Below, piece by piece: positions 19,745 through 41,327 of a stretch of 64,000 nucleotides of DNA. The notes beneath the pieces are model-generated. The model saw nothing but the letters and a program-made list of their open reading frames with translations, was not told the DNA's origin and searched no databases. The stretch is from the NCBI RefSeq assembly GCF_006345805.1, contig NC_042999.1, positions 117,366,001-117,430,000 on the forward strand. Direction: 5' to 3'. The translations under genes and the position numbers were made by a program. How positions within the stretch are numbered: the first letter of the stretch is position 1; each line of letters starts with the position of its first letter. Source of the DNA: Octopus sinensis (lineage: Eukaryota).

Positions 19745-20010
19745 ACATTGCGCGTGGCTTAGTGGTTAGGATACACACATATATGCAATCATACATAGTG
19801 GTTAGTGGACTCATGATCATAAGATTGTGGTTTCGATTCCCAAACCCATCGACACGTATTCTTATGCAAAACCCTTCATTTCACGTTGCCCCAGTCTACT
19901 CAGCTGGCAAAAATGAGTTATCCTGCGACGAGCTGGGGTCCCGTCCTGGTGGCATGTCATGGAAACCGGTCCTATGACTCTATACGGTGCACGAAGGAAC
20001 TTTACTTTAC
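19745..20010 (+). mobile_element. tRNA-derived SINE (family 3-related head) with duplicated A-box
   Basis: gcgcgtggcttagtggttag...tagtggttagtggactcatgatc...ggtttcgattccc; tail ggaactttacttta. Confidence 0.6.
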
Positions 20011-20319
20011 ATTTTGCTAGACATTGAAATACTCATATCCTAGTGTTAGAACCCTGTACACATGTGCTTCAGAATGAATCGTAAGTCAAGTACAGAGAGG
20101 TAATATGAAATTTCAAAAACAAAAGAAAAAACTATTAGGTTCATAACATAATCATTTATTCCTTTGTCATCCCAAATTTCTTACGTATATAAGCACGGTG
20201 CTATAGCAGAAACCAACGCAGTGGGACTGAAACCAAGACTGCATGATTATGAAGCAAGCAGCGCGACTACACAGCTATGTCTCTCTCTCTCTATATATGT
20301 ATTTATTTTATATATATAA

Positions 20320-20685
20320 CTTAGATAACCTAGATTGACTTCGGCCATTATCGTCCCAAGTCATGACTAACTCCATAGCAGTCTTTTTATTAATTATTTC
20401 GGGACACCATGGGCGACTAAAGCAGAGAGTTGTTCTTGGTTGAAACGTATCGGAGGAATATGTCCAGACACCGTTTGAAAGTTGTGAAGTCTTTTTCTAC
20501 TTTAATTTCTTTTGGGATAACATTGAAAAGTGCAGGACCATTTGCAGTGAAGAAATGGTATCGCAATGTTCTTATGTGATGTGATCTCGACCTTTGTAGG
20601 GAACGCATTGTACGGGGGCCCAGTCTTAGGTGAATTGTAAACATAATACCAATATCATTTGGATATAATTTTTGCAAGGCCAAAA
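20320..20685 (-). mobile_element. CR1-like LINE 3' fragment
   Basis: PNDIGI.F..HLRLGPR...FFTANGPALFNVIPKEIK...FKRCLDIFL, plus short 3' UTR and ctaggttatctaagttat tail. Confidence 0.7.
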
Positions 20686-20689
20686 TTAT

Positions 20690-21800
20690 ACTGTGTGAAG
20701 AAGACATAATCAGCTAGATACACGAGCACACTCACGCTGCAGATATTTTTCGTCAAGATCTATCTGTACTTGAGGAAATGAATGAGAAAGCTATTACAAC
20801 CCAGAAAACTTCACCACGAATTATAACACAAATGTTTCGGAAAATGTCTCTACTCAACTACCGGCCATGAGCACTATAAGGCGTTCAATCAGAAGATATA
20901 CGCAAGCTATACACGCTCCGCATCCCACACCAAGAAACTTGCATGATATGGTCATTCCAGATGAATGCAAAAAAAAACGACATGCAATGAGGAAAACTTA
21001 CTTTACGATAGTGGACACAGTGAGAACCGCACACTTTTGCTTTCCACAAAGAAAATAATGCGACTCTTGCAACCTTCAAGTAATTAGTCTTGTGATGGTA
21101 CATTCAAAGTAGTATCAGAACTATTTTACCAACTCCATTTACTGATTAATCGCTAATAGAACGATTCTTTGTGTCTTTGCATTAATGCCAAATAAACGTC
21201 AAGCTGACTATGAAGAACTTTTCAGCCGACTTCGGACTATTAACTCCAGGCTCAACCCCGCTAGTATTATGATCGATTATGAACAAGCTGCCAAGAATGC
21301 AATTACCGAATTTTTTCCAAATGCAATTATCAAGCAGTTTATCGGAAGGTACAATCAGAGGGATTACAATCAAGATATCAGAGCGATGCTGATTTTGCTC
21401 TAAGCATTCACATGACACTACCCTTGGCTTTTGTGCCAGCAGACAATCTTGTAACAAGTTTTGGGCAATTATAAGAAAATTTGTGCCATGAAGCAGATCC
21501 AGTCATTGATTACTTTGAAGATACTTATATCGGTATAATACGACGGAGTAACAGAGGCAACTTACTCTTTCCTATGTGTATGTAGAACATATATGACCGA
21601 GTATGCAATAATTTACCACGAACAATTAATTCCTTGGAGGTACGGAATAACCATTTACAGGCGAACATAACGTCATGTCATCCAAATATCTGGCGTTTTC
21701 TTCAGTTACTGAAGACGGATCAAGCACTTAATGAAGCGATCATCAATCAAATGCTGGCAGGAAATCAGCCTTCACCCGAAAAGAAAAAAAATATCAAGAT
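20690..21800 (+). mobile_element. Degraded MULE/Mutator transposase
   Basis: CDGTFKVVSELFYQL, FALMPNK, IMIDYEQAAKNAITEFFPN, LAFVP, DYFEDTYIG, LPRTINSLE, HPNIWRFL; frameshifts and stops. Confidence 0.85.
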
Positions 21801-21945
21801 TTAACCAATAAAAAATGAAGTCTTAGGAATCGGTTATATTTTATATATATGGTAGATATTATGTTTAATAACACATACCACTTAATTTTTTACTAATTTA
21901 TTCAACAGGTAAGAAGTTATTACAAATTTGTGTGTGTTGCATTAA

Positions 21946-22178
21946 CGCAACGATAGGCACACCAGCCCCAGTACATGTTTCGTTAGAGCAACGATGGGCC
22001 ACATGTCCCATAATGTATTATATAGAAAATCTTAAAACATCGAAAATATGTTTATTAATTTAAATGCAATTGAAGCATTTTACACTCGTTCTTTCTATTT
22101 TTAGGAAAAATATTTGAATTAATGATAATTGAAGTAAACATTGAGGTTAGATAAGAATGACTGAGTATTTGAAATAAC

Positions 22179-22246
<68 letters not shown>

Positions 22247-24167
22247 TGATTGAAACCTTTTTGAAGATTTTACTTTGAAACAATAATTATTTATCATTGT
22301 AACATACCATTATACAATATCACAAAACAGAATATACATTCTATCCAAATATAACATTTCTCTTTTCTGTTATTACGTGATAGGCTGAGTGTGACTACTT
22401 TTGTCTCTCATTACGTAATATAAGATAATTTGCAGTACTTCTACCCCAAACTTCACGCATTAAGACTGGATTCTGTGATAATCAGAGGCACACTTGACAT
22501 GCATAACAACTTTGCATTTCCTGCACATTTATACAGTTTGACTCTTGCATTACCTACATCTTCGACAGTTTTCTGGCTCACTCTTTTGATAAATCATGAC
22601 CTATGTTGTGATATCTTTCCTCGTTGATGATACTTGATCTAGATGCAACAAGCATTTTTTATCTTATTGGATTCATGGGTGGTGTCCATACTTCTTCAAA
22701 CGATACTGTACAGTTTGACGTGTAAATGCTAGTAGATCTTCTTTATAACCGCCTTCTCTGGCAAACAACCATGCATTATTCATGCACACGTTCAATAGGT
22801 AGGACACAAGTGGGAAATACCCTTTCCCCACGAATGGCAATGTGGCACTGAGATATGTTTTGGTCTTGCCTGTCGATATCTCCCATGCTTGAGTTATATT
22901 TTCCAATTAATTATGGCATTGGTATCTAAACTTGTTTACGTTCTGTAACTGACCAGCGATGAACTTGCTTTATAGAATGCACACCACACTGATGAGACCC
23001 AACAATAACGACACCATTATCATTCCACATTACCACTAAAATGCAAGAATATTTTTCAAGAAAATGCTCCTCAGTCTCTCGTGGACTTATTTCAAACTGC
23101 TTGACCTCAATTAGAGGACACTTTTTGATCTATTACTACGAATCATGCCAGTGGAAGAATGACCTCTTCGCTGTATCTCTTCTAGAAGGTTGAACAATGT
23201 GAATAAGTTATCAAAGGAGAAAGATTTCTTTTCTGAATATTGAGATTCAAATTTATCAATTATGTTAAGCACCACTTCTCTTCCTAGGCCGTATGTGTCC
23301 TTGCAACAGCTACTCTTTGCCCTTTTACATTTCCTTGATATAAATCAATCCAGTATGAGTAACCTAATGAACTAGCTGCTACCCACCCTTTGTAACCCCA
23401 TCGGATCGGTTTGTCTCGAATAAATTGCTTTGTGGGATGGCCACAATAATATGAGATCATGGATTCATCAATAGAGACATTTCTTGGATCAAAAACCGAG
23501 CCAAACTGTATAAAGCTTTGATTTAAAAGCTCCAACAATGGTCATACCTTTGCAAACCTGTCCTAGCTATCCAGTTCATTGTTGTCTGCTGCATGAAAGT
23601 ATTTCATTATCTCCTCAAATTTGTTTCTTCGCATTGAACTAGCTACGAGCTCATTTCGAACATTAGATTCGGTTTCCCATATAAACGCCGGTGATGTAGA
23701 GTGTTGTATCCTAAGAGCAACAAAATACCAATAAAAACCTTCATCTCGTTGCTTGACAATTGGAATATATGTTTTCCTTTTTGAGCTGCAAAAAAAAACT
23801 GTACTTAGTACGGTCTTCTATGAAGAGCTCAATATTTCATGAGGTTGCCGTGGTATGTCAACAATAGAAGGCCTGTAGGGGTAACTTGTGACTTCCTCTT
23901 TTGAGGTCATATCCTCCACATTCCAGTGCCAGGTCTTTTTACGCTTACACTGACGTGGGAGTACTCGTCTGCTGAAAATTATCATCTTGTTCTGTAGGCT
24001 GTTATGGACCATCATCCGTTTGTCTCATACTAGATTCTTCAACAGCAAAATCGGCTTCACTAAGTAGCTGGTTTCTCGGCAGATTTAATGCCATACACAG
24101 CCTAGATTTACGTGCTTGCCGTTGTAATAATGCAACACCCTGTAAAGGTAGGGTGCCCATCATTGCG
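21946..24167 (-). mobile_element. Degraded piggyBac (PGBD2/3-like) transposon
   Basis: EMKVFIGILL, SMRRNKFEEIMKYFH..DN, VSIDESM..YCGHPTKQFIRDKPIRWGYKGW, SFDNLFT, NNAW; imperfect TIRs cgcaacgataggcac / gtgcccatcattgcg flanked by TTAA / TTTA. Confidence 0.85.
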
Positions 24168-26957
24168 TTTACGCATCATCAAAAAAACATTTTTCTTTAC
24201 TCTTTTATATAAACTACTTCAAGTTGGTAAAACTAATAGATATTTTAGTTGTGAGTAAAATGATCCTGTGTCATCAGGTTCAAAACATTAGAAAGCTTGA
24301 ATTAAGTATGAACTACATTATTTACTTGAATTTGTGAGAAGATATAGTGATTTAAAATTTCAGTGTATTTAGATTAAACGTTATGGTAAGTTTTCACAAT
24401 CTGGAAGAAAAGAACAGTATGCAACTGTTAGCTACGGGTGTCGACTACCTACTGAACATTTTGCATGCTCAGTCAGATGCTTCCCGACGAGAAGGAGCAG
24501 GTTTTGCATTGCGAAAACGCAACCAGGGATATATATGGGTTAAAAGAATTGCAAATATTGTGGAGGATTATGAAAATCGAGAAGTGATGGATGTTTTGAG
24601 CTCACAACTTTTTAAAAATTATTTTCCGTATTACATTATTGCGCGTGATATTGATAAATTATCTGTAAATAATATTGTTTTTATAAAATTTAATTATTTT
24701 CTTTTTTTGTTAAAGTTTTACCTCTGTTTCTACAAATAAAACATAAATGCTATTTTTTTTGTACTTTTATTTTACTGTTGAAAAAAATGAAAATTTTATG
24801 CTTTTATTGACAACTATGATAGCTAAAAGGATTTAATATAACTTAAGATTTAATATAAAAAGATGACAACTAAAAAGATTTAATATAAAAAATGGATAAT
24901 GTTATATTTATTCACAACTAAACTTTTTAACGTCTCTTAAACTTTTGCCTGTGCAAAGCATTTGCTTACAGTTGTTTTAAGCGTCCATGCTTGTTTTCAG
25001 ACTTTTAGTTAGCCTTTGTTTTATGTGTTCTGAGTAATCTAAAATTTACCTTTAATAAATCCCAAGTTACACTGGCAGTTGAAAGCACTGAGAATGTATA
25101 TCATCGACGCCAGGAAAATGTGTCCTGTATAGCACATGTGACACACAGGACAAAAAAGGGTTAAACAATATCATTATTAATGTGAAATTGCATATTAATT
25201 AATTAATACTGAGTGGAAAAATTAATATAACTAAACTATAAGCCACCTCTGACCTCTGACTCAGTGTCAACTATAACCTCAGTGGAATTAATAAACAGGT
25301 ATATGGAGTAGATTTAAACGCTTTGGTTTGGCATTCCTAGATTAGCTTATTTTAACGTAGCACAAAGTTTTCGAAAAATAGCAAACTGAGATAAAAAAAA
25401 AATAATAACTCAAAATGGATATTTTGCTTGCTGGCCGGATGTATTTTGCTTGGTTGGTAATTTAATACAATATCCAACGTTATTCTTAGCTTTATAAATT
25501 TAATTTCCCTCAAATTAGGCCTTAGCACCTCAAGTATGGAAAGGTCACATTAATGAATGTAAGTCGAATCTAACTTTGATAAAAGCGTAGGTCACGGCTA
25601 AGCCATCCTTGATCAAAGCGTACTCGATCAGGGCTGACCTGGGGTTAAACAATTACGACAGCAAAATATCACGCATACATATGTATGCATACACACATGC
25701 ATAAGCTCATATACATACACGGACACACACACACACATACACGCTCATACATAACTCAAGTGGTGTAAGAACATACAAAAGTTTAAATTTCTTGGTGTAT
25801 CTGTCAGTAGTTAGTTACATTACAAACTCCTCGTAAGCATCTAAAGCTAGAATTTCAAGGAACCAGCAAACATTATGAGCCAAGATGGGCTCGTAATGAA
25901 AACTGAAATTTTATTTCTGCAAAAAACACAGTACAGAATCTTGTATCTATGAAATGTAACACAAATAAGGCATTTACAAAACAAACATCTAAAATAAAAA
26001 TTAGAAAAATAAAATAGAAATTACAAAAATAATTCGGAGCAAAATCTAAACCATAATCTCAATATTATCCCAGCTGAAACAATAACAGGAGAAAATATGA
26101 AAAAATAACCGTAAACAGTAGAAATCTTATGATCGCAGATACAAAATCAGCATGTCGTAACTCAGTCATCACAACACAGTCTCTGTAAAAAAGCTCTCTA
26201 TGAGGGACGAAACAACGAGTTCAAAAAGCAAGCTGTATGGATCGATGAACTGGGATGTTGCCATCCTTTTGAATTAAATCAAAATAAAAATATTAATAAA
26301 GGTTTCGAAATAGTCCTAAAGAAAATTATATAGAAAATCCTCAGATAAACATCCCATAACATTAGTTTAAGAATTTCGCATTATATCGAGGGGATTTGAT
26401 AAAGCTGTACGCAAAAATCATTGGGGATATGTAGGTGTACTAAAATAGCTGTCAACTCGCATTCTAAAAAACAGCTATACTTCCCAAATTAAAAATAATC
26501 CATTAAAAGCCAACCAGAACAACGTGCATATGATGTAAATTGACTTCCTTCTTCGTGAATGAAAAGACCCATTGGTAAATGTAGTCCAAAATAACTCTAT
26601 AAAGACATAATTGTCACAGTTGGAAAATCCTTAATTGTAGGTATGCTTGGTCAGGGTTGACCTAAGACTAAACGGTACAATAATTACACACATACACACA
26701 TGCACCTGGATAAAGAACTATACATGATTAAAAAGAGACGTGAAACTAATTGTAATATAATATATATATATATATATATAATAATAAATATTAGGGAATA
26801 AATCCAAATTTACAGGGAAAAAAATCAGATTTAGGATTAAATCGATTTTATAGTAAAATATTATAAAATATTATTCGAGACAAAACCACTATTTTGCAAA
26901 ACAAACAAGGAAAGACTTAATCAATACATAAATTTTAATAAATAGTCAAAAAAACCG

Positions 26958-27000
26958 CCACTACAATCGTTTCTTGTCTTGATCGACAATCTTCAGGTGG
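26958..27000 (-). ncRNA. Minimal type-I hammerhead ribozyme (inverted copy)
   Basis: Exact reverse complement of 31256-31298. Confidence 0.85.
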
Positions 27001-27969
27001 ACTTCCAATCTAAAAAATCAATATTTTAAAAAATAAAATAATAATTTTAAAATAATTAAAGTATGAATGAAAAAATATAAGTATATAATCCATATATAAC
27101 CTATCTATAATCCATATATAATCAATATATAAACAATATATAAACTAAAAAAACTATCAACAATTAAATATAAAATATAAAATATAAAATATAAAATATA
27201 AAATATAAAACAAAACAAAAAAAATAATAATAATATAATATTAAACTATATATACACCCATACGCATATACCTAATTATATATAACCATATCTAACTACA
27301 TACACTAAATCACACACCTATATATATATCCCTATACATACACATAAAAATGTCTAGGCAACTATAAATAAATAAAATAGCTAAATACTTCAACACAATA
27401 CTTATTCATACTCCCACACACACACACATACAACCCACATTCACACTCTAGAAAATGGACATCACTCAAAACTATGAACGGAGAAATAGAATAAATGGAA
27501 TTAAAAATTATATTCACTTGGTAAAACGAACACTACTTAAAAATTATGAATGAAACAATGCAATAAAACAACAGACATCGCAAATAGACACAAATTACTA
27601 CAAATTCCTTATCAAACCTACCATGATAACCAAAACTCATAAAAACATATAATGATAAAATCTCCCTTTACTAAACTCTATAACAAACCTATATAGCAAT
27701 CCCCCTAACCTAAACATTCACACACAAATACACACACGTAAACTACACACCCACGACATATACAAATACCCACACCACTTACACATACCAATACATACAT
27801 ATAAACCTCAACATATACTCCAAAACCCACTCAACCCCACACAGACAAATAAACACAAAAATTATGAATGGATTCTTTTATAAAACTACCATGATAAGCT
27901 AAAACTCACAAAACAGAAATGATAAAACCTCCCTTTACTAAACACTAAAACATACTTATATAGCAATAT

Positions 27970-28068
27970 CTTGAAGTATATAAGAAAAAACTATATAGTT
28001 TCTTTAAAAGATATGGTTTAAGTATTACTATATATAAGGAGAATTATAATGTTAATTATTTAGATATA
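27970..28068 (+). pseudogene. Isolated PLE reverse-transcriptase fragment
   Basis: LEVYKKKLYSFFKRYGLSITIYKENYNVNYLDI matches the PLE RT K..F...GL.ITI.....VNFLD segment. Confidence 0.7.
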
Positions 28069-28468
28069 GTTGCCTAGACATTTTTATGTGTATGTATAGG
28101 GATATATATATAGGTGTGTGATTTAGTGTATGTAGTTAGATATGGTTATATATAATTAGGTATATGCGTATGGGTGTATATATAGTTTAATATTATATTA
28201 TTATTATTTTTTTTTGTTTTGTTTTATACTTTATATTTTATATTTTATATTTTATATTTTATATTTAATTGTTGATAGGTTTTTTTAGTTTATATATTGT
28301 TTATATATTGATTATATATGGATTATAGATAGGTTATATATGGATTATATACTTATATTTTTTCATTCATACTTTAATTATTTTAAAATTATTATTTTAT
28401 TTTTTAAAATATTGATTTTTTAGATTGGAAGTCCACCTGAAGATTGTCGATCAAGACAAGAAACGATT

Positions 28469-29206
28469 TGATAATAATAATAAGATTAATAAGAATAAAA
28501 TTTGGTTAATAGTTCCTTATGGAAATCAAGTAAAAACGAATATTATTAAAGAGATTTTAGATGTTATAGATTTATTTATTAGAGTTAATCGTAAATATAG
28601 AAACATTTTCTCTTTTAATAATTTTGGAGTTGGTTACTCTACCACTAATAATGTTGGTAACATTATTTCTTCATTTAATAAATATAAACTGAATAATTTT
28701 TATAAAAAGAAATTATTTGATAATAATATTAATAATGATAAGACTTATATTAATTGTACATGTAGAGATAAATCTAATTGTATATTAAATAATAATTGTG
28801 ATATTAACGATGTAGTGTATAAATGTATAGTTACATTACATGATAATAACTTTAAGAATAATAATTACAAAAAAGCGGTTATATAGGTTCTACTTCCTCA
28901 AAAATAAAACTAAGAATCGCACAACATATGAATTCTTTTAAAAATAAAAACTTAATCAACTCAACCGGAATTAGTAAGTACATTTGGAGTCTTAAATCAC
29001 TAAATATTAATTATAGTTTAATTTGGGAAATAATTTGTAAAACTAAATCATATACTATAGGAGCTAATTGTTGTTATTTATGCTCTAATGAGTTTAAAGA
29101 AATTTTATTTTATAAGTATGATAATTTACTTAATACTGGCGAGGAGCGCAAAATAAAATGCAGACATAAGTTACTTTACCTATATAATAAGTTTCATGAT
29201 AAATAG
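28469..29206 (+). pseudogene. PLE thumb-linker-GIY-YIG endonuclease coding fragment
   Basis: IWLIVPY, IFSFNNFGVGYSTTNNVGNIISSFN, CTCRDKSNC (CxC-x5-C), VVY...GYIGST..K.RIAQHMNSFK, STGISKYIWSLK, CYLCSNE, KCRH; one frameshift in an A-run near 28869-28874. Confidence 0.85.
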
Positions 29207-31255
29207 CAATAATAGTTCCCTTTTAGGTTACTTTAGTTTAGTTTAAATTAGTTTAGGTAATATATTTTGGTTATGTTGTCTAGGCTTTAATTATAGTTAG
29301 TCTTTATTTATATTTCTTTGTTTTAATTAGTTCATTTTTAATGTATATATTTTGGAGGATATTTATATGTTTATGGGTGTTATTTAGTGGTGTTTTTATT
29401 GAGTTTTGTTGAATTGTAAGTATGTATTTTATTTACCTTTATGTCATATTGTTATTTTTGATATTCTGGTTAATTAAGATGTATTTAATTAATGTTGTTT
29501 TCATAGGAGTGTTTATGTATATGAGATTGTGTGCGAGTTTTTAGTTGTATAATTTATTTATCTGTATGAGTGTGGGTGTGTAAATATTGTTGTATATATT
29601 GAGTTTAGTGAGTATGTATATGCGTATATGTGAGGGAGTATATGTATCTGTTGTGTGTGTGTGTTTTGCGTGTGTGTGTGTTTGTGTGTGAATGTGTATA
29701 TGGGTTTGTTATTTAGGTTTTGGGATGTATGAGTTAATTTGTCTGTGTGGGAGGGAGTGGTTTTGGTGTATATGGAGGTTTATAAGTTAGTTTAGGTATG
29801 TGTATAAGTCGTGGGTCTGTGGTTTACGTGTGTGTTTGTGTGTGAATGTTTAGGTTTGGGGGATTACTATATAGGTTTGTTATAGAGTTTAGCAAAGGGA
29901 GATTTTATCGTTATATGTTTTTTAAGAGTTTTGGTTTATCATGGTTTTTTTTTTTTAGGGAATTCGTAGTAATTTGTCTTTTTTCGATGTTGGTTGTTTT
30001 ATTATATTGTTTCATTCATAATTTTTGAGTGGTGTTCGTTTTGCCACGTGAATTTTATTTTTAATTCCATTTCTTCCATTTCTCCATTCATTAATTTAGA
30101 GATGTTCGTTTCCAGAGCGGTTATACTTTTTATATATATGTTATGTTCTTTGGTAAAGTAATTTTGTTTGGTGTATATGTTGAGGCTTATATGTACTTGT
30201 GGGTGTGTGTGAGTGGGGTGGGAGTTTGTATTTGTTATGGGTGTGTGGTTTACGAGTGGTTTTGTGTGTGAATGTATTGGTTAAAGGAATTGCTATATAA
30301 GTATGTTTTAGTGTTTAGTAAAGGGAGGTTTTATCATTTCTGTTTTGTGAGTTTTAGCTTATCATGGTAGTTTTATAAAAGAATCCATTCATAATTTTTG
30401 TGTTTATTTGTCTGTGTGGGGTTGAGTGGGTTTTGGAGTATATGTTGAGGTTTATATGTATGTATTGGTATGTGTAAGTGGTGTGGGTATTTGTATATGT
30501 CGTGGGTGTGTAGTTTACGTGTGTGTATTTGTGTGTGAATGTTTAGGTTAGGGGGATTGCTATATAGGTTTGTTATAGAGTTTAGTAAAGGGAGATTTTA
30601 TCATTATATGTTTTTATGAGTTTTGGTTATCATGGTAGGTTTGATAAGGAATTTGTAGTAATTTGTGTCTATTTGCGATGTCTGTTGTTTTATTGCATTG
30701 TTTCATTCATAATTTTTAAGTAGTGTTCGTTTTACCAAGTGAATATAATTTTTAATTCCATTTATTCTATTTCTCCGTTCATAGTTTTGAGTGATGTCCA
30801 TTTTCTAGAGTGTGAATGTGGGTTGTATGTGTGTGTGTGTGGGAGTATGAATAAGTATTGTGTTGAAGTATTTAGCTATTTTATTTATTTATAGTTGCCT
30901 AGACATTTTTATGTGTATGTATAGGGATATATATATAGGTGTGTGATTTAGTGTATGTAGTTAGATATGGTTATATATAATTAGGTATATGCGTATGGGT
31001 GTATATATAGTTTAATATTATATTATTATTATTTTTTTTGTTTTGTTTTATATTTTATATTTTATATTTTATATTTTATATTTTATATTTAATTGTTGAT
31101 AGTTTTTTTAGTTTATATATTGTTTATATATTGATTATATATGGATTATAGATAGGTTATATATGGATTATATACTTATATTTTTTCATTCATACTTTAA
31201 TTATTTTAAAATTATTATTTTATTTTTTAAAATATTGATTTTTTAGATTGGAAGT

Positions 31256-31298
31256 CCACCTGAAGATTGTCGATCAAGACAAGAAACGATTGTAGTGG
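31256..31298 (+). ncRNA. Minimal type-I hammerhead ribozyme
   Basis: CCAC-CUGAAGA-UUGUC(GAUCAA)GACAA-GAAAC-GAUU-GUA-GUGG; stem I CCAC/GUGG, stem II 5 bp, predicted cleavage after 31294. Confidence 0.85.
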
Positions 31299-31384
31299 CG
31301 GTTTTTTTGACTATTTATTAAAATTTATGTATTGATTAAGTCTTTCCTTGTTTGTTTTGCAAAATAGTGGTTTTGTCTCGAATA

Positions 31385-31449
<65 letters not shown>

Positions 31450-31559
31450 ATAGGATAGTTTATACTTGAGACGACTAATTTAACAACGCATACACATCAA
31501 TATGACAAACACTTATTTCTTCAAATATAGACGCAAATAGTGAGTTGCTATTCATGTAG

Positions 31560-31634
31560 GGTTCTATGGTGTAATTAATGGTTAGCACTGTAGACTTTGA
31601 ATCCAGCAGTCTGGTTCAAGTCTCGGCAGGGCCT
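31560..31634 (+). pseudogene. tRNA-Gln(TTG) pseudogene
   Basis: ggttctatggtgtaat[taat]ggttagcactgtagacTTTGAatccagc...ggttcaagtctcggcagggcct; 4-nt duplication in D-arm and stem mismatches. Confidence 0.75.
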
Positions 31635-31779
31635 TATATTAAATAAAAAAATTCTTTCACTCCATTGCGCCAATTTTATACTACCTGAGCAAGCTGGAGG
31701 AAAGGAGAAAGTGTGATGCTAAAAAAAGAAAAAAAGAAAATGGTATAAGAAACGCAAGGACTTGGTTGTCGTGTAGCTG

Positions 31780-32210
31780 GATTATTTGGCGTATTATCAA
31801 ACCATGGGTAGTTGCTAGCCAGCATTTAATCAAGACAGTCTACGATTTTACTGTTCACAGATAATAACAAACAAATCAAATCTGACATCATAAATTACCA
31901 AAACTATACCCTATTGGTCTATGATTTGTTAATATTGCTCATTTCCTTGCTGTCGAAATATCTATCATAATATTTATGGAGTTGGATGCCCTGAATCCAG
32001 AGCCATATCTCATCATTTTTGACGAACAGATGCTGCACGGATAAAACATTGCTCACGGAGAAAATAAATTAGGTCTCATTGTCCAATATTTCGAAGACAT
32101 TGGGATGAAATTTCTTGAGTCGAAATACGCAGTTTTGATTGTGAAACTAAGACGGGTGTAATTGCATTCAAATGCGTATTACATGTATCTGGGACAAGAT
32201 GAGGATGCAA
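31780..32210 (+). mobile_element. Heavily decayed R4-type RT remnant
   Basis: QYFEDIGMKFLESKYAVL and YMYLGQDE resemble F..DIGM.FG..KCA and YKYLG motifs. Confidence 0.5.
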
Positions 32211-32849
32211 AATCAGTACTAACATAATATTTTCTTTAGGACATTTCTATTTAAGATGGAGATTTGCCATTTAAAAGACATTTCGTTGCTATTTTTAGCA
32301 TGTCCAGCAGTCATGTAGGTCCTACCAGTTATAAAAGTGAGCCAGAATATGCTGAGAGCAGTCATTTGGTCACAAGATGAATTTTAAATATTTTAAATAC
32401 TTAGTGCGTTCAGACTACTCAAAAATCATATTCATTTACATAATGCACATGTGGACTCGAAAAATAGTCTCAAATATCCTGGTTATTGGATCCAGAATGT
32501 TCAAACTAGGTCAGAGAAATAAAATAATAGCAACCAAAATTTATATAAAATGTGCAATGGGGAAAAAAACCAGTATCACTAGAAGATATCAGCCCGCATG
32601 ATCGCGTTTGGTTCTATGATACAAAATGATCTTAACAAACTTTTCATCAAAATTTTTCCATACATCAGCTTAATAACAACAAAGTTACTTTAATGATTTT
32701 TTTTTTATTATTTTCCAAATGATTTCAACCGAAGGCAGTAAATTTCATGAACAATTTAGTAATGAAAGGGTTAAATTAAACATTAAAAATAATACTGTCA
32801 TGAACTCGAATTCTCAACAAACTATCAAATCATTTTTGTTTTCCTAGTA

Positions 32850-33900
32850 ACAGTTAGCAACATCTGTACCTTGTCATGTAAATATTCACAGCATCGACAA
32901 ATTATTAATGAAGGAATTCCTTCATTACTTGCAACTAATCTGAAACTGCATAGAATAAAATACAGGGTTCTTGTAATAATATTATTGATCCATCCTCACT
33001 TGATGATACTGTTTGAGAAAAGTGTGTGTGTGTGAGTGCGTGTAAGACGTTGCAATTAACGACAAAATAAAATTGTATCATAGTATTAATTGATGCTAGA
33101 AAAACTACTGCTGAAGTCTTGCATAAAGTCGTGAAAAAGTGTTTGAGTGATGTGGGAATTAATATTTTATATAACTGCTTCTCTATTGCAGCAAATGGAG
33201 TTCCAAGCCTTTCTGGCGTTAATAATTCTCTCTACACGTTAATGAAATTAGCTAATCCAAACTTGAACCTTATAAAATTCATTTGCCACTCTTTCCATTA
33301 AATGTATTCCCATGCTGCAGGAGAATTTCCTTCTAACATTGTCTGTCTTTCAAGAGAAGCTTAAAACTGGTCTCATAGATCAGCGCTGTGAAGAGAATCT
33401 TACAAAGAAATAATTAATTTATCAACCAAAGATGGCGAGGAGCGACTGAAAATGATTTTCCTTTTCAACCACAAGTTGATTAGCGAGAAGTTACTGTAAA
33501 AAAGTTCCTGGCCAGTGAAAAGTATTAAAATTACATTTTCAATTGGCAACAACTCATTGCGACAGATTTTAAGCAAGTGAATTACATGCTATATAGTTAG
33601 TTATAATCAATGAACCTCTTGCAACATTTATGAGAGAACTGTTGAGCGAATTTGGAACAATTAATTTAGTGTTCTAAAAAGGAACAGCAGAAAACTAGAA
33701 TCTTAGATGGACTATGTACTTTTACATTCTCTATGCTTACAAGTATTTTACACCCTCAATATGTGAATCTTGAAGCGATTCATACATTGAATCACAGTAT
33801 ACTTACATAGGAAAAAAGATTTGGATAAAAATTCTATGGATTTTTGATCAGTAAACTTTCATTAAAACAAAGTTTCGAAGGTCAAAGGAAGCGCTGTACA
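32850..33900 (+). mobile_element. Decayed hAT-family transposase
   Basis: LKLHRIKY, ANGVPSLSGVNNSLYTLMKLANPNLNLIKFICHSFH (DGA..M.G / CxxH region), NWSHRSAL, Q*KVLKLHF. Confidence 0.6.
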
Positions 33901-34413
33901 AAAGCGGTTGTTCAGCCGTTGAGACAGACATTAAAAAATACTTATATCGCGTGCCTAGAATGAAACCCTTCATTTATGTTTAATCCAAGCACGTCCATCT
34001 TTTGCCACTTCTTTAAGATGCGAAATGTTAACACTTGACTTTTTGTTTATAAAAGTAACAATCCAATCGAATTTTATATTAAACTATCAACTAAGCAAAT
34101 TAGAACCTACACGAGGGCAACCATCACTGATGTATATTTCCTTTTGAAAATTTCGAAGTACTTTTTTTATGAAATCGATATGGTTAATCCGTGTTAGTCG
34201 TAAGAGAAACTTGCATAAGGCTAATATCTGTAAAGAGTGAGAATAGTTAGTTCAATCAAAAGAATGAAAAGATTTATAACTTCAACATAAAGTGCATAAG
34301 AGTAAAGTAACTACAGAATATAATCTAAATAGGAATACAAATCCTTAGAAATTCATAGTATGAATCCTTATAAAGTGGGATTTTCATGTTTCATCTTTTA
34401 GTATAAAATATTT

Positions 34414-34735
34414 AAATATTTTATACTAAAAAATGAAACAAACGGAAAATGAGGTGAGGTGTGGGGTAACTTATTTTCAATAGTTAGATATTATTAGATA
34501 CGAGGGGCTCGACAATATCGTTTGCACATTCTTGAATGCTTTTAATCAGATTTTCTATTGCGCACACTGGTTAGGGTTAGTTTTAGGGGTAGGTGGTGTG
34601 CACTCGCTTTACCTCCGCCTATTTTATGATGTTGTGATATACGACAGTAATATTTATAAAACAATACAGTAAATGGTAAAAGTAAACTACCTCCCCTTGT
34701 ATCGTCCGATTCGCGAGTATCCCTTTTCGGTTTTT
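34414..34735. mobile_element. Probable MITE whose right TIR is split by the CR1-like LINE
   Basis: Left aatattttatactaaaaaatgaaacaaacggaaaa vs ttttcggttt[LINE]tgttttatttttttagtataaaatatt (37193-37218); internal ggttagggttag. Confidence 0.45.
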
Positions 34736-34744
34736 TTAAATTTT

Positions 34745-37193
34745 TTTATTTATTAAGTTTCAGCTCACAAACTGTGGCCATGCTGGGGCACCGCCATTTG
34801 GTGTTGCTACATGATTTTACTTCACGAATGCTTTTTAGCAAATGCCATCTAGTGCATGAGAGAGTTCGATGCAGCTACCCTCATCTGCACCTCCTGCCAT
34901 GAAGTTGGTTCATCTGGGACACCTGACAAGATGAGATCCAGTTTTATTTTAAAGACATCTGCATCCATCCCATGCAGGTCTCTTAGGTTCTTCGGGAGGA
35001 TATTGAAGCCCAGGCTATCACAGTATCTTGTCCTACATCTTGAAGGCAAATTTGGAGTCCTTGGCACTATGCAGTGGCGCCCAGTTCTGGCATTTGTGTA
35101 ACTCTCGATGCCAAAGTTTGGGACAAGTCCTTCTAGGATCTTCCAGATGTATATTATGGCATATCTTTCTCACCTATGGTCTAAAGAATAGAGTCTCAAT
35201 CTCTTGAGTCTTTCCCAATAGCTTATATGCTGCGCAGAGGCTATCTTCTTCGTGTAGCTTCGTTGGATCGCCTCAAGTTCTGTGATTAACTTGACACTGG
35301 ATGGTGACTATAACTGAGAGCAATAGTCAAAGTGGCTTAGGACAAGTGTCCTCCAGAGGACCATCATGGTTTCCTGGTCTCTTGTTCTAAAGGTTCTAAG
35401 AATCCATCCGGTCAGCCGCCTACATTTCATTGCCAATTTAGCAACATGCACATGAAAGGTTGCATCATCACTCATGTAAATACCCAGGTCTCGCACTGAT
35501 TGTGCCTCTGGGATTACAATCCCTCCAGGTCCAGTGTATTTATTGGGTATTGCATTTAGTTTTGCATGCTGATAGTATAAAGCTTGAAACTTTTCAGCAT
35601 TCAACTGCATGCTATTCTTTTCAGCCCACTTGTATATTTTGTCCAGCTCACATTGCAGGTGCTTAGTGTCCTCAGGGTTCTGTATTGCCTGTGAAACTTT
35701 TGTATCATCTGCATAACTTGTGATCGTAGCTCTCTGCGTGGCTGAGGGTATGTCTGAGGGGGCCATTATGAACAGTAGTGGTCCCAGAACAGTGCCTTGC
35801 GGGACACCGCTCACTATTTGCGTGTTAATGGAAGTGGCCCCATTGGCTACTACCACCTGACTTCCATCCTTCAGAAAGTCATGAAGCCATTCTCCCAATT
35901 TTCCAACTATGCCAAGATCACGCAGTTTGTGACATATCATTCCATGATCGACTTTATCAAAGGCCTTGCAAAGTCAAGATACATGACTTCCACATTTGAG
36001 TGGTTGAGCAGTCGTTTCAGCACCCAGTCATAGTGTTGTAGGAGCTGAGTTAAGCAGCTTCTTCCTGGTCGGAAACCATGTTGGGTGTCAGGCAGCAAGT
36101 CATTTCCTTCAAGGAAGGTGATTAGTTTCCTTCTGACTATTCGTTCCATGACCTTGCTGATGTGTGAGATCAGAGAGATAGGTCTGTAGTTCTTGGCCCC
36201 CGCTCTTCTACCTCCTTTATGAATAGGGCATATGTTACCTCCCTTCAGTTTTCTTGGAAGTTTGCCAGTTGCAAGGAAGCTCTGAAAGAGGAACTGCAGT
36301 GGTCTTGCTAGGACTCTCTTACATACTTTTAGAAGGATTGCTGGGAATCCATCGGGGCCAGTAGCTGAGTTTGTTTTCATTTCATCAATAGCCTTTATTA
36401 CATCGTCTTCCTTTATATTGATGTAATCAATCATCGCTGCCTCTGATTTTATATCTGCAGTGGTAAAGAAGTCAGTTGGATTGCTGACTTGAAAATGCCC
36501 TAGGGGTAGAGGGAAACTACTCTTGAATTGCTCATTTAGTATTTCACCTACCCTCATTGGATTTCCTGTGAGTGTGCCATCCTTTTCAAGGAGTGGCCCT
36601 ATCCTACAGTGTACCGTAGCTGTTTCTTTGGCATACCTGTAGAAAGCTCTGGGGTTAGATTTTATGTTGTCTATAGCCCAGGCTTCTTTGTCTGTTCTTT
36701 CTTTTTCATGGGAGAGTTGCAGACATTTTTCAATTTCCAACAGCTTTATTTTCAGGCGGGACTTTTCACTGATTTCAATTTGTTTGTTTAGGTGATTTGA
36801 AACTTTTGTACGCCGTCTCATTAGAATTTTCCTCTCTCTGGGGATTTTGCTCTTGTGTACAGTGGCCTTTCTCTCTGGGACACATTTGTAGCATATGGCT
36901 TGCATTACAGACATGAATTGTTGAAGTTTCATGTCGATGTCTGGCGAAGATAGACATTCAGGCCAGTTTTGTTTGAGGATCTCTTTCTCAATTTGTTTCC
37001 AGTTTGCCTTATAGAAGTTCAAGCTGGAAAGATTCTGAGAGTTTCTTGTAGGCTGCATGTCCATGCTTTCCTTTGGCCCGTACATGGTCAGCTCTACCAT
37101 TTTGTGATCCGAGAGTAGTGTCGGCGTCACTTTCACATTATGGATGAGATCCATATTATTTGTGAAGCAGAGATCCAGTATGTTACCTGCCCT
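34745..37193 (-). mobile_element. 5'-truncated CR1-group LINE (end of APE, RT, C-terminus, 3' tail)
   Basis: GNILDLCFTN..LSDH; SATGPDG, NYRPISL, QHGFRPGRSC, YLDF, GVPQGTVLGPLLF, YADDTK, RDLGI, DYCSQL; frameshift near 35960; 3' stem-loop tail. Confidence 0.92.
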
Positions 37194-38359
37194 GTTTTAT
37201 TTTTTAGTATAAAATATTAAAAAATATATGAATCTTACTAATTTTTTGACAAATTCATTTCTTTTGGATATATTTCCCATTTTCCTAACTATTTTTTTTA
37301 CAATTAAACGTCATTTTCTTGGAGAGGTGCGTTTCTAAAGAAGCGTCACTTACTGTAATACTGGGTGTTATACAGTCGTCTGCTAAGTTATGAGGATCTA
37401 AACAAACTAAAACTAGTTTTCAAGCAATGAAAGGAATAAGCACAATGACACACATGCATATATAGGACAGACTTCCGCAAAATTCTCTGTCTATCAAATT
37501 CACTCGGTATTGGTTGTTCTGGAACTAAAGTAGAAGAAACTTGCCTAAGGTGCCACAAAGTGGCATTGAACTCGAAGTCGCGTAGATTTTGTTTCATATA
37601 TCATTATTTTTGGTTTCAAAACTAAATGCACCATTTAAAATATAACTAGACATCATTTCTATACATTCGCCCCCTTCCGGAGGCTCAAATATCACATCTG
37701 TATTATTTTCACCACATATTTAAGCACCAGTTGTAAAAGTATCTGCTAGTACTCATTAGATGAGTATTACTATCGTGATAAATATTGATCACATACTTAA
37801 TCGTATATTTAGCTGGAAACATAAAAGACAAGGTTAAATGGTCCTATCTGTTTGCATGAACTAGCATAATAATTCTGTGACAAATAGCTAACAGCCGCTG
37901 TATAGAATCACATCTCAAATTGCTAACAATAATTCTCTTATCACTGAATTATATATTAGCTGATTATATTTCCTCAATGTTAGAACCATCTATCAAGTGT
38001 TTAAATCTTGGCACACTAGTATCAGATTCAATATACATTTTCGCAATGATACTAATGCTGGTATCAAGAAATTTCCTTTCATAGATATTTGTTAATAAAG
38101 TTAGTGTCAGAGTGTAGCAGTATACGTATTGATTAATGCCGAGGAGAGTATTTCTGTTTATAAAAGTTATTAAACTAAGCCCATCGACTCGAGTTCAGAC
38201 TTCAGCAGAATCTTTCTTTTTTTTATAATGAAGGTTTTTTTATTTTTTAAATATGACCAAAAATTATTATATATTTTGATTACAACACTATTTTCATACA
38301 TTTTCATACAAATAATGGTTCATGCATTTCAGCTAAATTAACAATTTCTATATACAATA

Positions 38360-38568
38360 GTTTCAAATTTTAGCACAATGTAGTTTTAAAGGCCGGAATA
38401 AGTCAGTAGCATCGACCCAGAACGCTCAACTGGTACATATTTTACCGACCCCGAAGAGATGAAAAGCAAAGTTTCCCTCAGTGGAATTTGAACTCAGAGT
38501 GTAGAGCCAGAAGAAATGCCGCAAAGCGTTTTGTCTGAAGTGCTAAGTTTCTGCCGGCGCACTGCCTT
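38360..38568 (-). mobile_element. SINE family 2 with TSD
   Basis: Matches 61836-62067; flanking caatttctatat duplication. Confidence 0.7.
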
Positions 38569-38924
38569 CAATTTCTATATAATAACAATTCATCTCTTCT
38601 TTGGGTACATAGCATGAATGTTTTAGATGGGGTGGGTGTGGAGACTAGTCGATTACATCGACCCCAGTACTTCACTGGTACGAAATGCCGCTTAGCATTT
38701 TGTCTGATGTGCTAATGATTTTGTCAGTTTGCTACCATATTTCTATATATTAAATAAATACGGTTATCAATTTGTGTTGCAAGATTCCTGATGTGAAATA
38801 GTTTGTTGAAACCGATATTGTTGTATTTCGGGACAGTCACTTTTTTTTTGCCAAATAAACACACGCACTATATATTTTTCATCACTCGTTTATTAATGTT
38901 CCTATTTTAACTCATGTCCATTGT

Positions 38925-38964
38925 CCGGAAATCTTTCGTCACGCATCTGTGACCTCTTCAGCTA
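38925..38964 (-). ncRNA. Minimal hammerhead motif
   Basis: CUGAAGA-G-GUCAC(AGAUGC)GUGAC-GAAA-GAU-UUC-CGG; stem I 5' strand mutated. Confidence 0.6.
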
Positions 38965-39703
38965 CACTTTTCGTTTTTGCGTGTGTTCTTGCTCCGCTTA
39001 CTCCATTTTATTCTTCTAATGTATGTATCCTTATGTGTGCATGATTTTGTGTCCTTGTTTGTGTGTGTGTGTGTGTGTGTGTGATAGTTTTTAGCAGCAG
39101 TGCAGCCTTCCCCTCAGCAGCCCCATCCTCTCACCCCATAGTGCTGCTGCTGTCCTAAGACGCGAAAAATATGGTACAATTCCTGTATTCTTTTATGTAT
39201 GTTCACCCACGGTATTGCCATCGTGGTAGTTGTTGTTATTGCCATCGTTGTCACCACCGCTGCTGCTGTCGTTGATAAGCGTGTTGTTGACATTGTTGTG
39301 GCTGTCCGTGAAATTTCTTGTATGTTTGTGTGCGTATGGGTTCGCTTCGTATGCTGTATGTATCTATGCCCTTTATATAGATTTATTTAGTCATTTTATC
39401 TAGCTCATATTTATCCCAGATATGTGACAAATATATTTATATGCTTATTTATTTATTTTTGATACATCTATATTTGTGATAAGTATCAATGGTAAGTGCA
39501 TGTATGTCTATTGTGTGTGCGTGTTACTCTGTATGTTTCTGTGTATCCTGGAGTGAGAGGATGGAGCTGCTGAGGGGAAGGCCGCACTGCTGCTAAAAAC
39601 TATGACACACACACAAGCATAAACACACATATACACACGCACACACACACAAATGCATGCGCACATAAGGATACACACCTCAGAAGAAAAAATGGAATAA
39701 GTG

Positions 39704-39743
39704 CCGCTGAAGAGGTCACAGATGTGTAACGAAAGGTTTCCGG
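39704..39743 (+). ncRNA. Minimal hammerhead motif
   Basis: CCG-CUGAAGA-G-GUCAC(AGAUGU)GUAAC-GAAA-GGU-UUC-CGG; stem I CCG/CGG. Confidence 0.65.
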
Positions 39744-41327
39744 AAAATGGACATGAGTTAAAATAATAAAATAAGAACATTAATAAACGAGTGAAGAAAA
39801 AATATATAGTGCGTGTGTTTAATTGGCGGAAAAAATTACCGTCCCGAAATACAAGTATAAGAAAATAATAATACTGATTTCTTTTGAGACGGTGAAAACG
39901 CATGGTTTAATGATTAAGGTGTCTGATTCATTATCATGAGGTTGTGAGTTTAATTTCTGGTTTGGACAGCACCTTGCGTCCTTGAACAAGGGACTTTATT
40001 TTTGTGCTGTTCCATGCTATTCAGAAACAATAAGCACTAGTCGGATGCTGGCGCAATTCTCACTCCTTCCATCTCTCACGTCTGGGATATTCTTCTCGGT
40101 CAAGAATAAGAGGGCCGAGAAGTTGTCTTTGATCGCAACTACATAAATACTTAAAACAATAAAAGAAAAAAATCATATTACCAAGCTATATATGTTCGTA
40201 AGTGACAGCTGATTGTGCTGCACTTTCGTTCATCAATTTCAAGACTAGGGTCAAAGCAAGCCAAGACGACTAGATGTAGATCAGGGATGTACTGAGATGA
40301 TCAGGGCGATCTACGTAACCCACTCCGAAATGCATGTGACTGAGTATAGAATACTCCCTCTGCTCTAAACAAGATACTAATTCATCGCAGGGATAAATCC
40401 CAGCATTTGGTGGTTTTTAATTTCATCTGACTTGATTGGAACTACGTGAACTGAAACGTTTAGATCAAGAATATAAGGTGCACTTGCTTTGGGAATCGAA
40501 ACCATGATCTTAACGATCGTGAGTTCAATATCCCTGCACCCTTAGAGACTCATCTTAGAAAGTGCATGAATGTACTACAAAGATTTAAAACGTCAACTGA
40601 CTCTCATTAAATACTACTTAACCTTTTCTTTCTTTCTATTTTGTCATTTTCTCTCCCTACTCTCTCTCTCTCTGTCGCATACTTTTATTACTGTGTGTCA
40701 TCCTGGTCTTTTTTTCATTTCTTTATCCTTTTATCTCTGCTACCTCGCCGGCATTTTTGACTACCGACCTGAAAATTTGCAATTCTTTATCATCTTCCTT
40801 TCTTTTGTCTTACTATTTTCTTGTTTGCTTTTCCAATTTTTTCTCTCCTCTCCATTTTTGTCCTTCAGCTCTTTCTTCTACACATTTTACTTTTTTCTGT
40901 TCACTTATCGTTTTATATGGAAACTAAATAATTCTAAACGCCATTCGTGCGACAAGCAGTATGTAATTACATGTCAGTATATTTAATTAATGGAAGATTA
41001 AAAACGAAAGTAGAATAAATTATGCGATGAAAAATAAACAATATTAGTCGATGAGTAATTATCTTTTCATTTCACTCCATCTCCGCCAATTACAAGAGAC
41101 AATCTCGCATATAATTCCAATTTAACGTGACATTTAGACATTAGTGAAGTATAAGCCTCACTGTAACATGCCCATTTGGTGGCGAATGAATAAAAGTAGT
41201 TGTTCACTGACTTCCGAATCAGAAGTTGCTTGAGTAGACCTAGGATCAAAAGTATTCCATCTGTGTCTATTTTGTTTTAGCCGTATCTAGAACTACTTAA
41301 TCCACCCTGTTCTTCTGTCTTAAAGAC

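What the first reader, a model, noticed from the sequence alone, without database searches (positions are those of the whole stretch)
28065..28468. Internal PLE junction falls 3 nt from the hammerhead cleavage site
Seen: 28065-28468 is a direct copy of 30890-31291 with one substitution and two 1-nt insertions. It stops at ...GAAACGATT, inside hammerhead loop III and 3 nt short of the predicted GUA cut (31294), then fuses to the thumb/GIY-YIG coding part. Inference: during reverse transcription the RT jumped onto the 3' end of a ribozyme-cleaved and slightly trimmed RNA, copied ~400 nt, then jumped again onto RT-coding RNA (27970-28068). This would be a genomic record of in vivo hammerhead cleavage feeding PLE template switching.
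Basis: partly seen in the sequence, partly recalled or inferred. Interest (0 to 1): 0.75.

Follow-up and report, generated by a model that had tools for sequence, protein, structure and literature searches.

The report
Patchwork Penelope copy from template jumps
This is one dead copy of a Penelope-type jumping gene stitched from five pieces of its own sequence, likely by a copying enzyme that hopped between RNA molecules; one seam lies three bases from the predicted cut of the element's self-cutting RNA, but such seams do not pile up there among thousands of sibling copies, so the closeness is likely chance.

Summary
In detail: 28065-28468 copies 30890-31291 (one substitution, two 1-nt insertions) and stops 3 nt before the predicted GUA cut. 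It is one of four seams in a 4.6-kb two-armed insertion of a Hydra-clade Penelope-like element (motif-based), replacing about 560 nt of RT code. Template jumping is the likely cause. The ribozyme link failed the genome-wide test: among about 2,800 hammerhead copies no insertion end or long-range junction sits at the cut (0 of 12 candidate hits), only two events break at -3, and a control stretch breaks as often. All 30 sampled copies read through the intact hammerhead to fixed ends about 100 or 185 nt past the cut. A weak hint remains: copies whose 5' end lies at -1..+1 are 1.7-fold more frequent than in the flanks (p about 0.03, post hoc), within a gradient. About half of the hammerhead copies come from spliced RNA. 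The scan noted spliced Penelope copies and two-armed insertions before on other DNA; one note on another genome reports junctions at the cut, which this family does not show. The junction is unconfirmed in reads.

The parts
26760..26779 (.). (TA)n target microsatellite, left flank
   Evidence: sequence
26780..27967 (-). inverted arm: pLTR from about 1,005 nt before the cut to the long tail end, about 183 nt after it; 26862-27967 is identical to 30289-31394 (1,106 nt, 0 differences); contains an intact hammerhead at 26958-27000
27968..28065 (+). 98-nt RT-coding bit (LEVYKK...NYLD); seam J1 (inversion) at 27967/27968, seam J2 at 28065 with one shared T and an imperfect 7-nt match (TTATTTA) just upstream
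   Evidence: 100% identical to L002/L031, L019, L035
28065..28468 (+). 404-nt pLTR piece (intron end, acceptor, hammerhead up to loop III, 28433-28468); replaces about 560 nt of RT-coding sequence
   Evidence: (544-566 nt in 22 other copies)
28468..28469 (+). seam J3, the junction of the finding: pLTR position -3 joined to coding position +2021; no microhomology as written, 2 nt (TG) if one T is a stutter
28469..29409 (+). end of RT/thumb, CxCx5C linker, GIY-YIG endonuclease (frameshift near 28880, stop 29204-29206) and start of 3' UTR
29410..29415 (+). last 6 nt of exon 1; seam J4 at 29409/29410 skips about 3.2 kb of 3' UTR relative to copy L033
29416..31246 (+). spliceosomal intron of the pLTR (GTAAGT ... 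TTTTTTAG), retained here
   Evidence: 1,383 exact matches to the spliced junction in the genome
31256..31298 (+). type I hammerhead, predicted cut after 31294; predicted to work as a dimer
   Evidence: sequence; dimer fold -23.4 kcal/mol with extended stem III; no Rfam hit
31295..31394 (+). short tail (+1..+100), inferred RT start at its end
   Evidence: 30 of 30 sampled copies end near +101 or +185-210
31395..31446 (.). (TA)n target microsatellite, right flank
   Evidence: sequence

Best explanation
The 404-nt piece is one segment of a five-piece Penelope-like insertion likely assembled by the element's reverse transcriptase jumping between RNA templates, and its end 3 nt before the predicted hammerhead cut is most likely a background landing site rather than a ribozyme product. 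Inferred order: the endonuclease cut a (TA)n tract; one cDNA started about 100 nt past the hammerhead cut site, read through the uncut ribozyme and the retained intron to within a few bases of the RNA 5' end (J4), jumped into the 3' UTR, copied 941 nt, jumped (J3) to loop III of another pLTR, copied 404 nt, jumped (J2, imperfect microhomology) into RT-coding RNA for 98 nt, and was joined head to head (J1) to a second cDNA that had started about 183 nt past the cut. Shown: segment map, seams, arm identity, tail ends, genome-wide counts. Inferred: RNA-level jumps, their order, start sites, transcription start.
For: Segment map against natural copy L033: [+194..-1002 inverted][+1363..+1460][-409..-3][+2021..+2965][-1877..+101]. 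The piece carries the family allele GG where both arms have a single G found in 0 of 36 other copies, plus its own private C (0 of 32), so it is not a copy of this insertion's arms; all segments are closest to the same sibling, L031. J4 keeps 6 nt of exon 1, inside the 3-23 nt range where 102 of 103 spliced arms begin, as expected for a jump from near an RNA 5' end. Mosaic seams occur in other copies, e.g. L036, L039, L150, L157, L188, L191, L347. Test of the cut site: 2,778 exact hammerhead 28-mers; non-G right after GUA in 12 hits, 0 of 12 an insertion end or long-range junction; non-G at -2 in 19 hits, 16 point changes or 1-nt indels, this seam, and two arms of one 45-nt duplication; window -10..+2 gave 14 hits with 4-5 breaks that are not simple indels, against about 7 such breaks and 8-9 deletions among the first 100 of 143 hits in control window +60..+74 (70 of them read by eye). 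30 of 30 unselected copies read through the hammerhead to the two tail ends. In the Anolis element RT starts internally, hammerhead mutants do not affect insertion, and no RNA reads end at the cut (PMC11167929, parts 1-2 read).
Against: For this seam alone, the chance that one of three landing sites falls within 4 nt of the cut in a 7-8 kb unit is under 1% before allowing for how many windows and families were read. Both jump-type seams found near the cut lie at exactly -3. Three small changes touch the cut: a 7-nt deletion starting at +1 (L287), a 6-nt deletion at +1/+2 (L089) and a 5-nt duplication ending at 0 (L085). 5' ends are 1.66-fold denser at -1..+1 than in both flanks (26 against 46 events, p = 0.029), and one ORF-long copy starts at about -1..+2 (L036). 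A cyclic-phosphate end could block jumps onto the exact cut and leave only trimmed ends (3'-phosphate RNAs are under-read by a group II intron RT, PMC4691826, passages). Patterns need exact anchors and miss about 15-28% of random partners. The seam is unconfirmed in reads.
Confidence: 0.62

Rival explanations
1. One reading: the acceptor at J3 was the upstream product of hammerhead self-cleavage, trimmed by 3 nt; a minority of RNAs of this family are cut in vivo.
For: Seam 3 nt from the cut with no microhomology and a terminal T that fits single-base clamping as described for a group II intron RT (10.1101/2021.05.13.443781, passages); second event at -3 (L092/L093); small indels at the cut (L085, L089, L287); 1.66-fold excess of 5' ends at -1..+1; intact core and dimer fold; an unreviewed scan note reports junctions at the cut in another genome (e1-8848484).
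Against: 0 of 12 junctions at the cut, none at -2, one local rearrangement at -1; no excess over the control stretch; 5' ends are denser still at +54..+60 (10.5 per position) than at the cut (8.7); the other landing sites here (+2965, +1460) have no ribozyme; the second -3 event has a 3-nt ATT microhomology.
Confidence: 0.2
2. The mosaic centre was made at the DNA level after or during insertion, by repair synthesis that switched between genomic copies (microhomology-mediated templated insertion) between the two 1.1-kb inverted arms.
For: Perfect inverted arms are fragile (general knowledge); thousands of donor copies exist; J2 has an imperfect 7-nt match.
Against: All three internal pieces are in sense orientation and come only from this family and from the same sub-lineage; J4 lies at the inferred RNA 5' end; J1, J3 and J4 have little or no microhomology.
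Confidence: 0.1
3. -3 is a cryptic 5' splice site (GATT|GTAGTG), so the acceptor was a free 5' exon or a mis-spliced RNA.
For: The real donor reads GAATT|GTAAGT; in the other -3 event the partner is exactly the 3' splice site position -47.
Against: Mismatches to the donor consensus at +4 to +6; the partner of J3 is preceded by AA, not AG; ATT microhomology explains the other event; only 2 events in about 2,800.
Confidence: 0.04
4. Assembly artefact in a collapsed repeat.
For: Copies in this assembly carry many 1-nt indels; no public contig bridged the seam.
Against: Both outer ends are the family's two standard tails in (TA)n; small sense pieces with private alleles; similar mosaics elsewhere.
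Confidence: 0.04

Closest known systems
Hydra clade of C-terminal EN+ Penelope-like elements (Craig et al. 2021, PMC8557442; sections 11 and 15 read, other passages, one supplement search)
   Same: DKT, CxCx5C linker, no second cysteine of CCHH between the GIY and YIG halves, CxxC and CxH around the E and N residues, canonical hammerhead, (TA)n targets, inverted 5'-truncated copy and optional tail.
   Different: Unit of about 7-8 kb with a long repeated 3' UTR (described families are generally under 3 kb); tail about 85 nt rather than 30-40; RIKWK instead of RWK; no tree was built.
PAc (Poseidon of Anolis; Frangieh et al. 2024, PMC11167929; parts 1-2 of 4 read)
   Same: Two fixed RT start sites downstream of the hammerhead that define the tail; uncut RNA is the main template; both DNA strands are extended.
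   Different: Different clade; the two starts are about 85 nt apart; the ORF does not overlap the hammerhead; multi-jump mosaics and spliced mini-copies were not described in the parts read.
Type I hammerheads in pLTRs of metazoan PLEs (Cervera and De la Pena 2014, PMC4209133; parts 1-2 of 4 read)
   Same: Small palindromic helix III suited to dimers; intron end next to helix I, as in D. virilis Penelope.
   Different: That paper proposes cleavage and circularisation of precursors; insertion ends here show little trace of it.
End-to-end template switching by non-LTR-type RTs (group II intron RT, 10.1101/2021.05.13.443781, passages; R2 jumping, search listing only)
   Same: Sense-to-sense joins with 0-1 nt of pairing, one starting near an RNA 5' end.
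   Different: Not shown biochemically for any PLE RT in the papers I found; here inferred from DNA only.

Membership tests
EN+ Penelope-like element | single ORF with RT followed by C-terminal GIY-YIG endonuclease | tested here: met
   859-residue open frame in natural copy L040 with YRDD, YLDV, VVY...YIG; Pfam and PDB searches gave no significant hit, so the call rests on motifs
EN+ Penelope-like element | partial tandems forming pLTRs, inverted 5'-truncated copy, optional tail | tested here: met
EN+ Penelope-like element | hammerhead motif and spliceosomal intron in the pLTR | tested here: met
Hydra clade | DKG changed to DKT | tested here: met
   DKT at residue 149 of the L040 frame
Hydra clade | CxCx5C linker and absence of CCHH | tested here: met
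   CTCRDKSNC; one cysteine only between VVY and YIG
Hydra clade | CxxC and CxH on either side of conserved E and N | tested here: met
   CYLC ... CRH in the window copy; CRN in L040
Hydra clade | N-terminal RWK motif | tested here: inconclusive
   RIKWK found, not an exact RWK
Hydra clade | insertion into (TA)n | tested here: met
   both flanks here; 3' ends of sampled copies
Hydra clade | groups with Hydra families in an RT phylogeny | not tested
Type I hammerhead ribozyme | core CUGANGA, GAAA, NUH with stems I-III | tested here: met
   sequence and fold; the monomer's lowest-energy fold is not the hammerhead, the dimer's is; no Rfam match
Type I hammerhead ribozyme | self-cleavage | not testable with these tools
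   needs an in vitro assay
Record of in vivo hammerhead cleavage | upstream-product ends (landing or start sites) cluster at the cut | tested here: not met
Record of in vivo hammerhead cleavage | downstream-product ends (5' truncations) cluster at +1 | tested here: inconclusive
   1.66-fold over flanks, p = 0.029, within a gradient

The most novel reading that the evidence does not exclude
A small share (well under 1%) of this element's RNAs are cut by the hammerhead in vivo: the downstream product gives the excess of copies that start at -1..+1, and the upstream product, once its cyclic phosphate is trimmed away, serves as an acceptor for template jumps such as J3. That would be genomic evidence of hammerhead activity in an animal Penelope-like element and of ribozyme products feeding mosaic insertions.
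Probability: 0.2. Interest if true: 0.6.

Novelty: new member of a known kind. Interest (0 to 1): 0.3.

Why it matters
What PLE hammerheads do is stated as unclear (PMC8557442, section 15). This family allows a count: at most about 0.13% of hammerhead copies end at the cut (0 of 2,778, 95% bound), so cleaved RNA is at most a rare template, in line with the in vitro result for the Anolis element. The insertion also shows that a PLE RT likely makes several jumps in one event, and the family shows two fixed start sites, one per arm, and abundant spliced dead-end copies, which bears on why ORF-bearing copies keep their intron. The single seam is not evidence of cleavage by itself.

Tried and rejected
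Rfam scan of 20000-40000 found no hammerhead family. Pfam on window fragments and on the L040 frame, and a PDB sequence search, gave nothing significant. Sequencing runs: no RNA holder listed on record; contigs of 6 runs in two calls showed only the native continuations on both sides of J3 and no bridging contig, which proves nothing because the runs may be other individuals and contigs are filtered. Splicing as the direct cause of J3 was rejected because the partner lacks AG. A native microhomology at J3 was looked for and not found. Local duplication from this insertion's own arm was rejected on alleles. A normal 5' pLTR plus simple deletion was rejected because RT sequence that belongs downstream lies upstream of the piece. 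Restricting 5'-truncated copies to ORF-long ones gave no set: all those found by pattern end at the tails or earlier. My first guess of the Neptune clade was dropped after the motif check. Paper searches for PLE template switching with hammerheads and for spliced or intronless PLE copies listed no paper on the point; subscription papers are not searched. Rows dropped before counts: point changes and 1-2 nt indels, hits of a second subfamily with another stem II, twin arms and local duplicates counted once; 16 of 67 hits and the indel-like rows were judged from the listing only; some searches listed 100 of 135, 166, 130 and 143 hits, and counts were scaled (from its first 30).

Full report
Coordinates written with a sign are relative to the predicted cut: 0 is 31294 (the A of GUA), +1 the next base.

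Observation. The copy, its three differences and its end at -3 are as described. The hammerhead core and stems are in the sequence at 31256-31298; the lowest-energy monomer fold is not the hammerhead, while a dimer forms it with an extended stem III, as expected for metazoan PLE hammerheads (PMC4209133, parts 1-2). Rfam did not report it. The seam is unique among the 40 best hits to 28400-28700.

What the locus is. Against natural copies the insertion 26780-31394 has five pieces between two (TA)n tracts: an inverted arm ending at the long tail (about +183), 98 nt of RT code, the 404-nt pLTR piece, 941 nt of thumb-endonuclease-3' UTR, and a 1,985-nt pLTR ending at the short tail (+100). The piece replaces about 560 nt of RT code (544-566 nt in 22 other copies), and seam J4 skips about 3.2 kb of 3' UTR relative to L033. 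The arms are identical over 1,106 nt and share a single-G allele seen in 0 of 36 other copies; the piece has the family allele and its own private base. All pieces are closest to one sibling (L031), so they likely come from one source lineage but from more than one template molecule. The protein motifs in the intact frame of L040 (DKT, CxCx5C, no CCHH, CxxC/CxH) match the Hydra clade as defined in PMC8557442, section 11; no tree was built, and Pfam gave no hit. Earlier scan notes call this genome an octopus; I did not check that.

How the family copies itself. There are 2,778 exact matches to the hammerhead 28-mer. In the first 30, every copy runs through the uncut hammerhead and ends near +101 or +185-210 (the latter inflated by TA matches) before (TA)n. 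This fits two internal RT start sites, as shown in vitro for the Anolis element (PMC11167929). The pLTR has an intron (29416-31246); 1,383 exact matches carry the spliced junction, 11 of the 30 sampled copies are clearly spliced against 14 with the intron, and 102 of 103 spliced arms keep at most 23 nt of exon 1, marking the likely RNA start. All 21 hammerheads in the 20 ORF-bearing 10-kb loci keep the intron end. J4 keeps 6 nt of exon 1, so the first jump likely left from near an RNA 5' end.

Exact anchor plus non-G at +1: 12 hits, none an insertion end or long-range junction; ten are 1-nt indels, one a diverged copy, one a 7-nt deletion starting at +1. Non-G at -2: 19 hits, 16 point changes or 1-nt indels, this seam, and both arms of one small insertion on contig C27 in which -47..-3 is duplicated, with ATT on both sides. 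Any break in -10..+2: 14 hits, of which this seam, the C27 pair, one break near -9, one local rearrangement at -1 and one stray 20-nt fragment are more than small indels. The control stretch +60..+74 gave about 7 such breaks and 8-9 deletions in the first 100 of 143 hits, about 0.7 against 0.3-0.4 per position, on a somewhat larger set of copies. There is no pile-up at or just before the cut; the 95% upper bound for copies ending at the cut is about 0.13%.

Test 2: copies that begin at the cut. A cleaved downstream product would give copies starting at +1. Events per position, scaled for anchor frequency and listing limits: 2.6 at -22..-11, 4.3 at -5..-2, 8.7 at -1..+1, 6.1 at +2..+7, 10.5 at +54..+60 (raw 17, 17, 26, 29, 21). 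The main trend is loss with distance from the start sites. The cut window is 1.66-fold above its flanks (p = 0.029; against -5..-2 p = 0.015, against +2..+7 p = 0.12). The window was chosen by hypothesis but microhomology with TA partners blurs positions, and RT stalling on entering the folded hammerhead would give the same step. One ORF-long copy (L036) starts at about -1..+2. This is a hint, not a result.

Weighing J3. Taken alone, a landing within 4 nt of the cut is unlikely, but the seam was picked out for that reason from many families and windows, the other two landing sites of the same insertion have no ribozyme, and none of about 12 sense-strand seams met without selecting for the site lands there. 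Absence at exactly 0 is not decisive, since a cyclic phosphate may block an acceptor (PMC4691826, passages). I give 0.62 to background template jumping, 0.2 to a cleaved and trimmed acceptor, 0.1 to DNA-level templated repair, and 0.04 each to a cryptic donor and to an assembly artefact. Public contigs neither confirm nor deny the seam.

Novelty. Complex tandem and inverted PLE insertions are known (PMC8557442, passages). My searches listed no paper that maps PLE breakpoints against the hammerhead cut or reports spliced PLE mini-copies; subscription papers and most supplements were not searched (one supplement search of PMC8557442). Earlier scan notes describe spliced leader copies and two-armed insertions on other DNA, one rejects a ribozyme-cut origin for a similar filler, and one reports junctions at the cut in another genome, so families may differ. 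Verdict: real mosaic, ordinary kind, ribozyme link unproven and probably coincidental.

Noticed in passing
window 29410-29421 and 31232-31256; genome-wide: About half of the hammerhead-bearing arms are retrocopies of the spliced leader (exon 1 of at most 23 nt joined to the hammerhead exon), many as tiny head-to-head palindromes; 1,383 exact junction matches, while ORF-bearing loci keep the intron.
   Followed up: partly
window 26780 and 31394; L038, L042, L348, L358: Two-armed insertions often have one arm ending at the short tail (+100) and the other at the long tail (about +185), which fits priming from both target strands at two start sites about 85 nt apart.
   Followed up: partly
G000:C27:4558165-4558303 (L092/L093): Both arms of a spliced palindromic insertion carry a tandem duplication of -47..-3, i.e. 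a break at the same base as the finding, joined to the splice acceptor position.
   Followed up: yes
L117, L353, L255: Deletions that skip most of the hammerhead between the two strands of stem I (or from its core to +54), as if the RT crossed the base of the folded ribozyme.
   Followed up: no
L150, L157: Short tandem repeats of about +1..+32 that restart at or next to the cut; the pattern a run-off at a cleaved 5' end followed by a jump back would leave.
   Followed up: partly
L036:2994-6773: An ORF-long copy whose 5' end lies at about -1..+2, directly after (TA)n.
   Followed up: partly
L226-L242: A second subfamily with the same tail but a different stem II (CTGACGA core, ATGTC/GACAT pairs), a covarying hammerhead.
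   Followed up: no
L045-L048, L041: A subfamily whose pLTR intron is shortened by an internal deletion ending at -156, in tandem arrays.
   Followed up: no
window 31564-31635: A tRNA-like stretch (GGTTCTATGGTGTAATT ... TCAAGTCTCGGCAGGGCC) just right of the insertion; ARAGORN calls no tRNA, so probably a SINE head or decayed tRNA.
   Followed up: no
window 34849-37196 (-) and 23284-23817 (-): A decayed LINE-type RT frame (DFARPL...YADD) and fragments resembling a piggyBac-derived transposase (family labels recalled, not tested).
   Followed up: no
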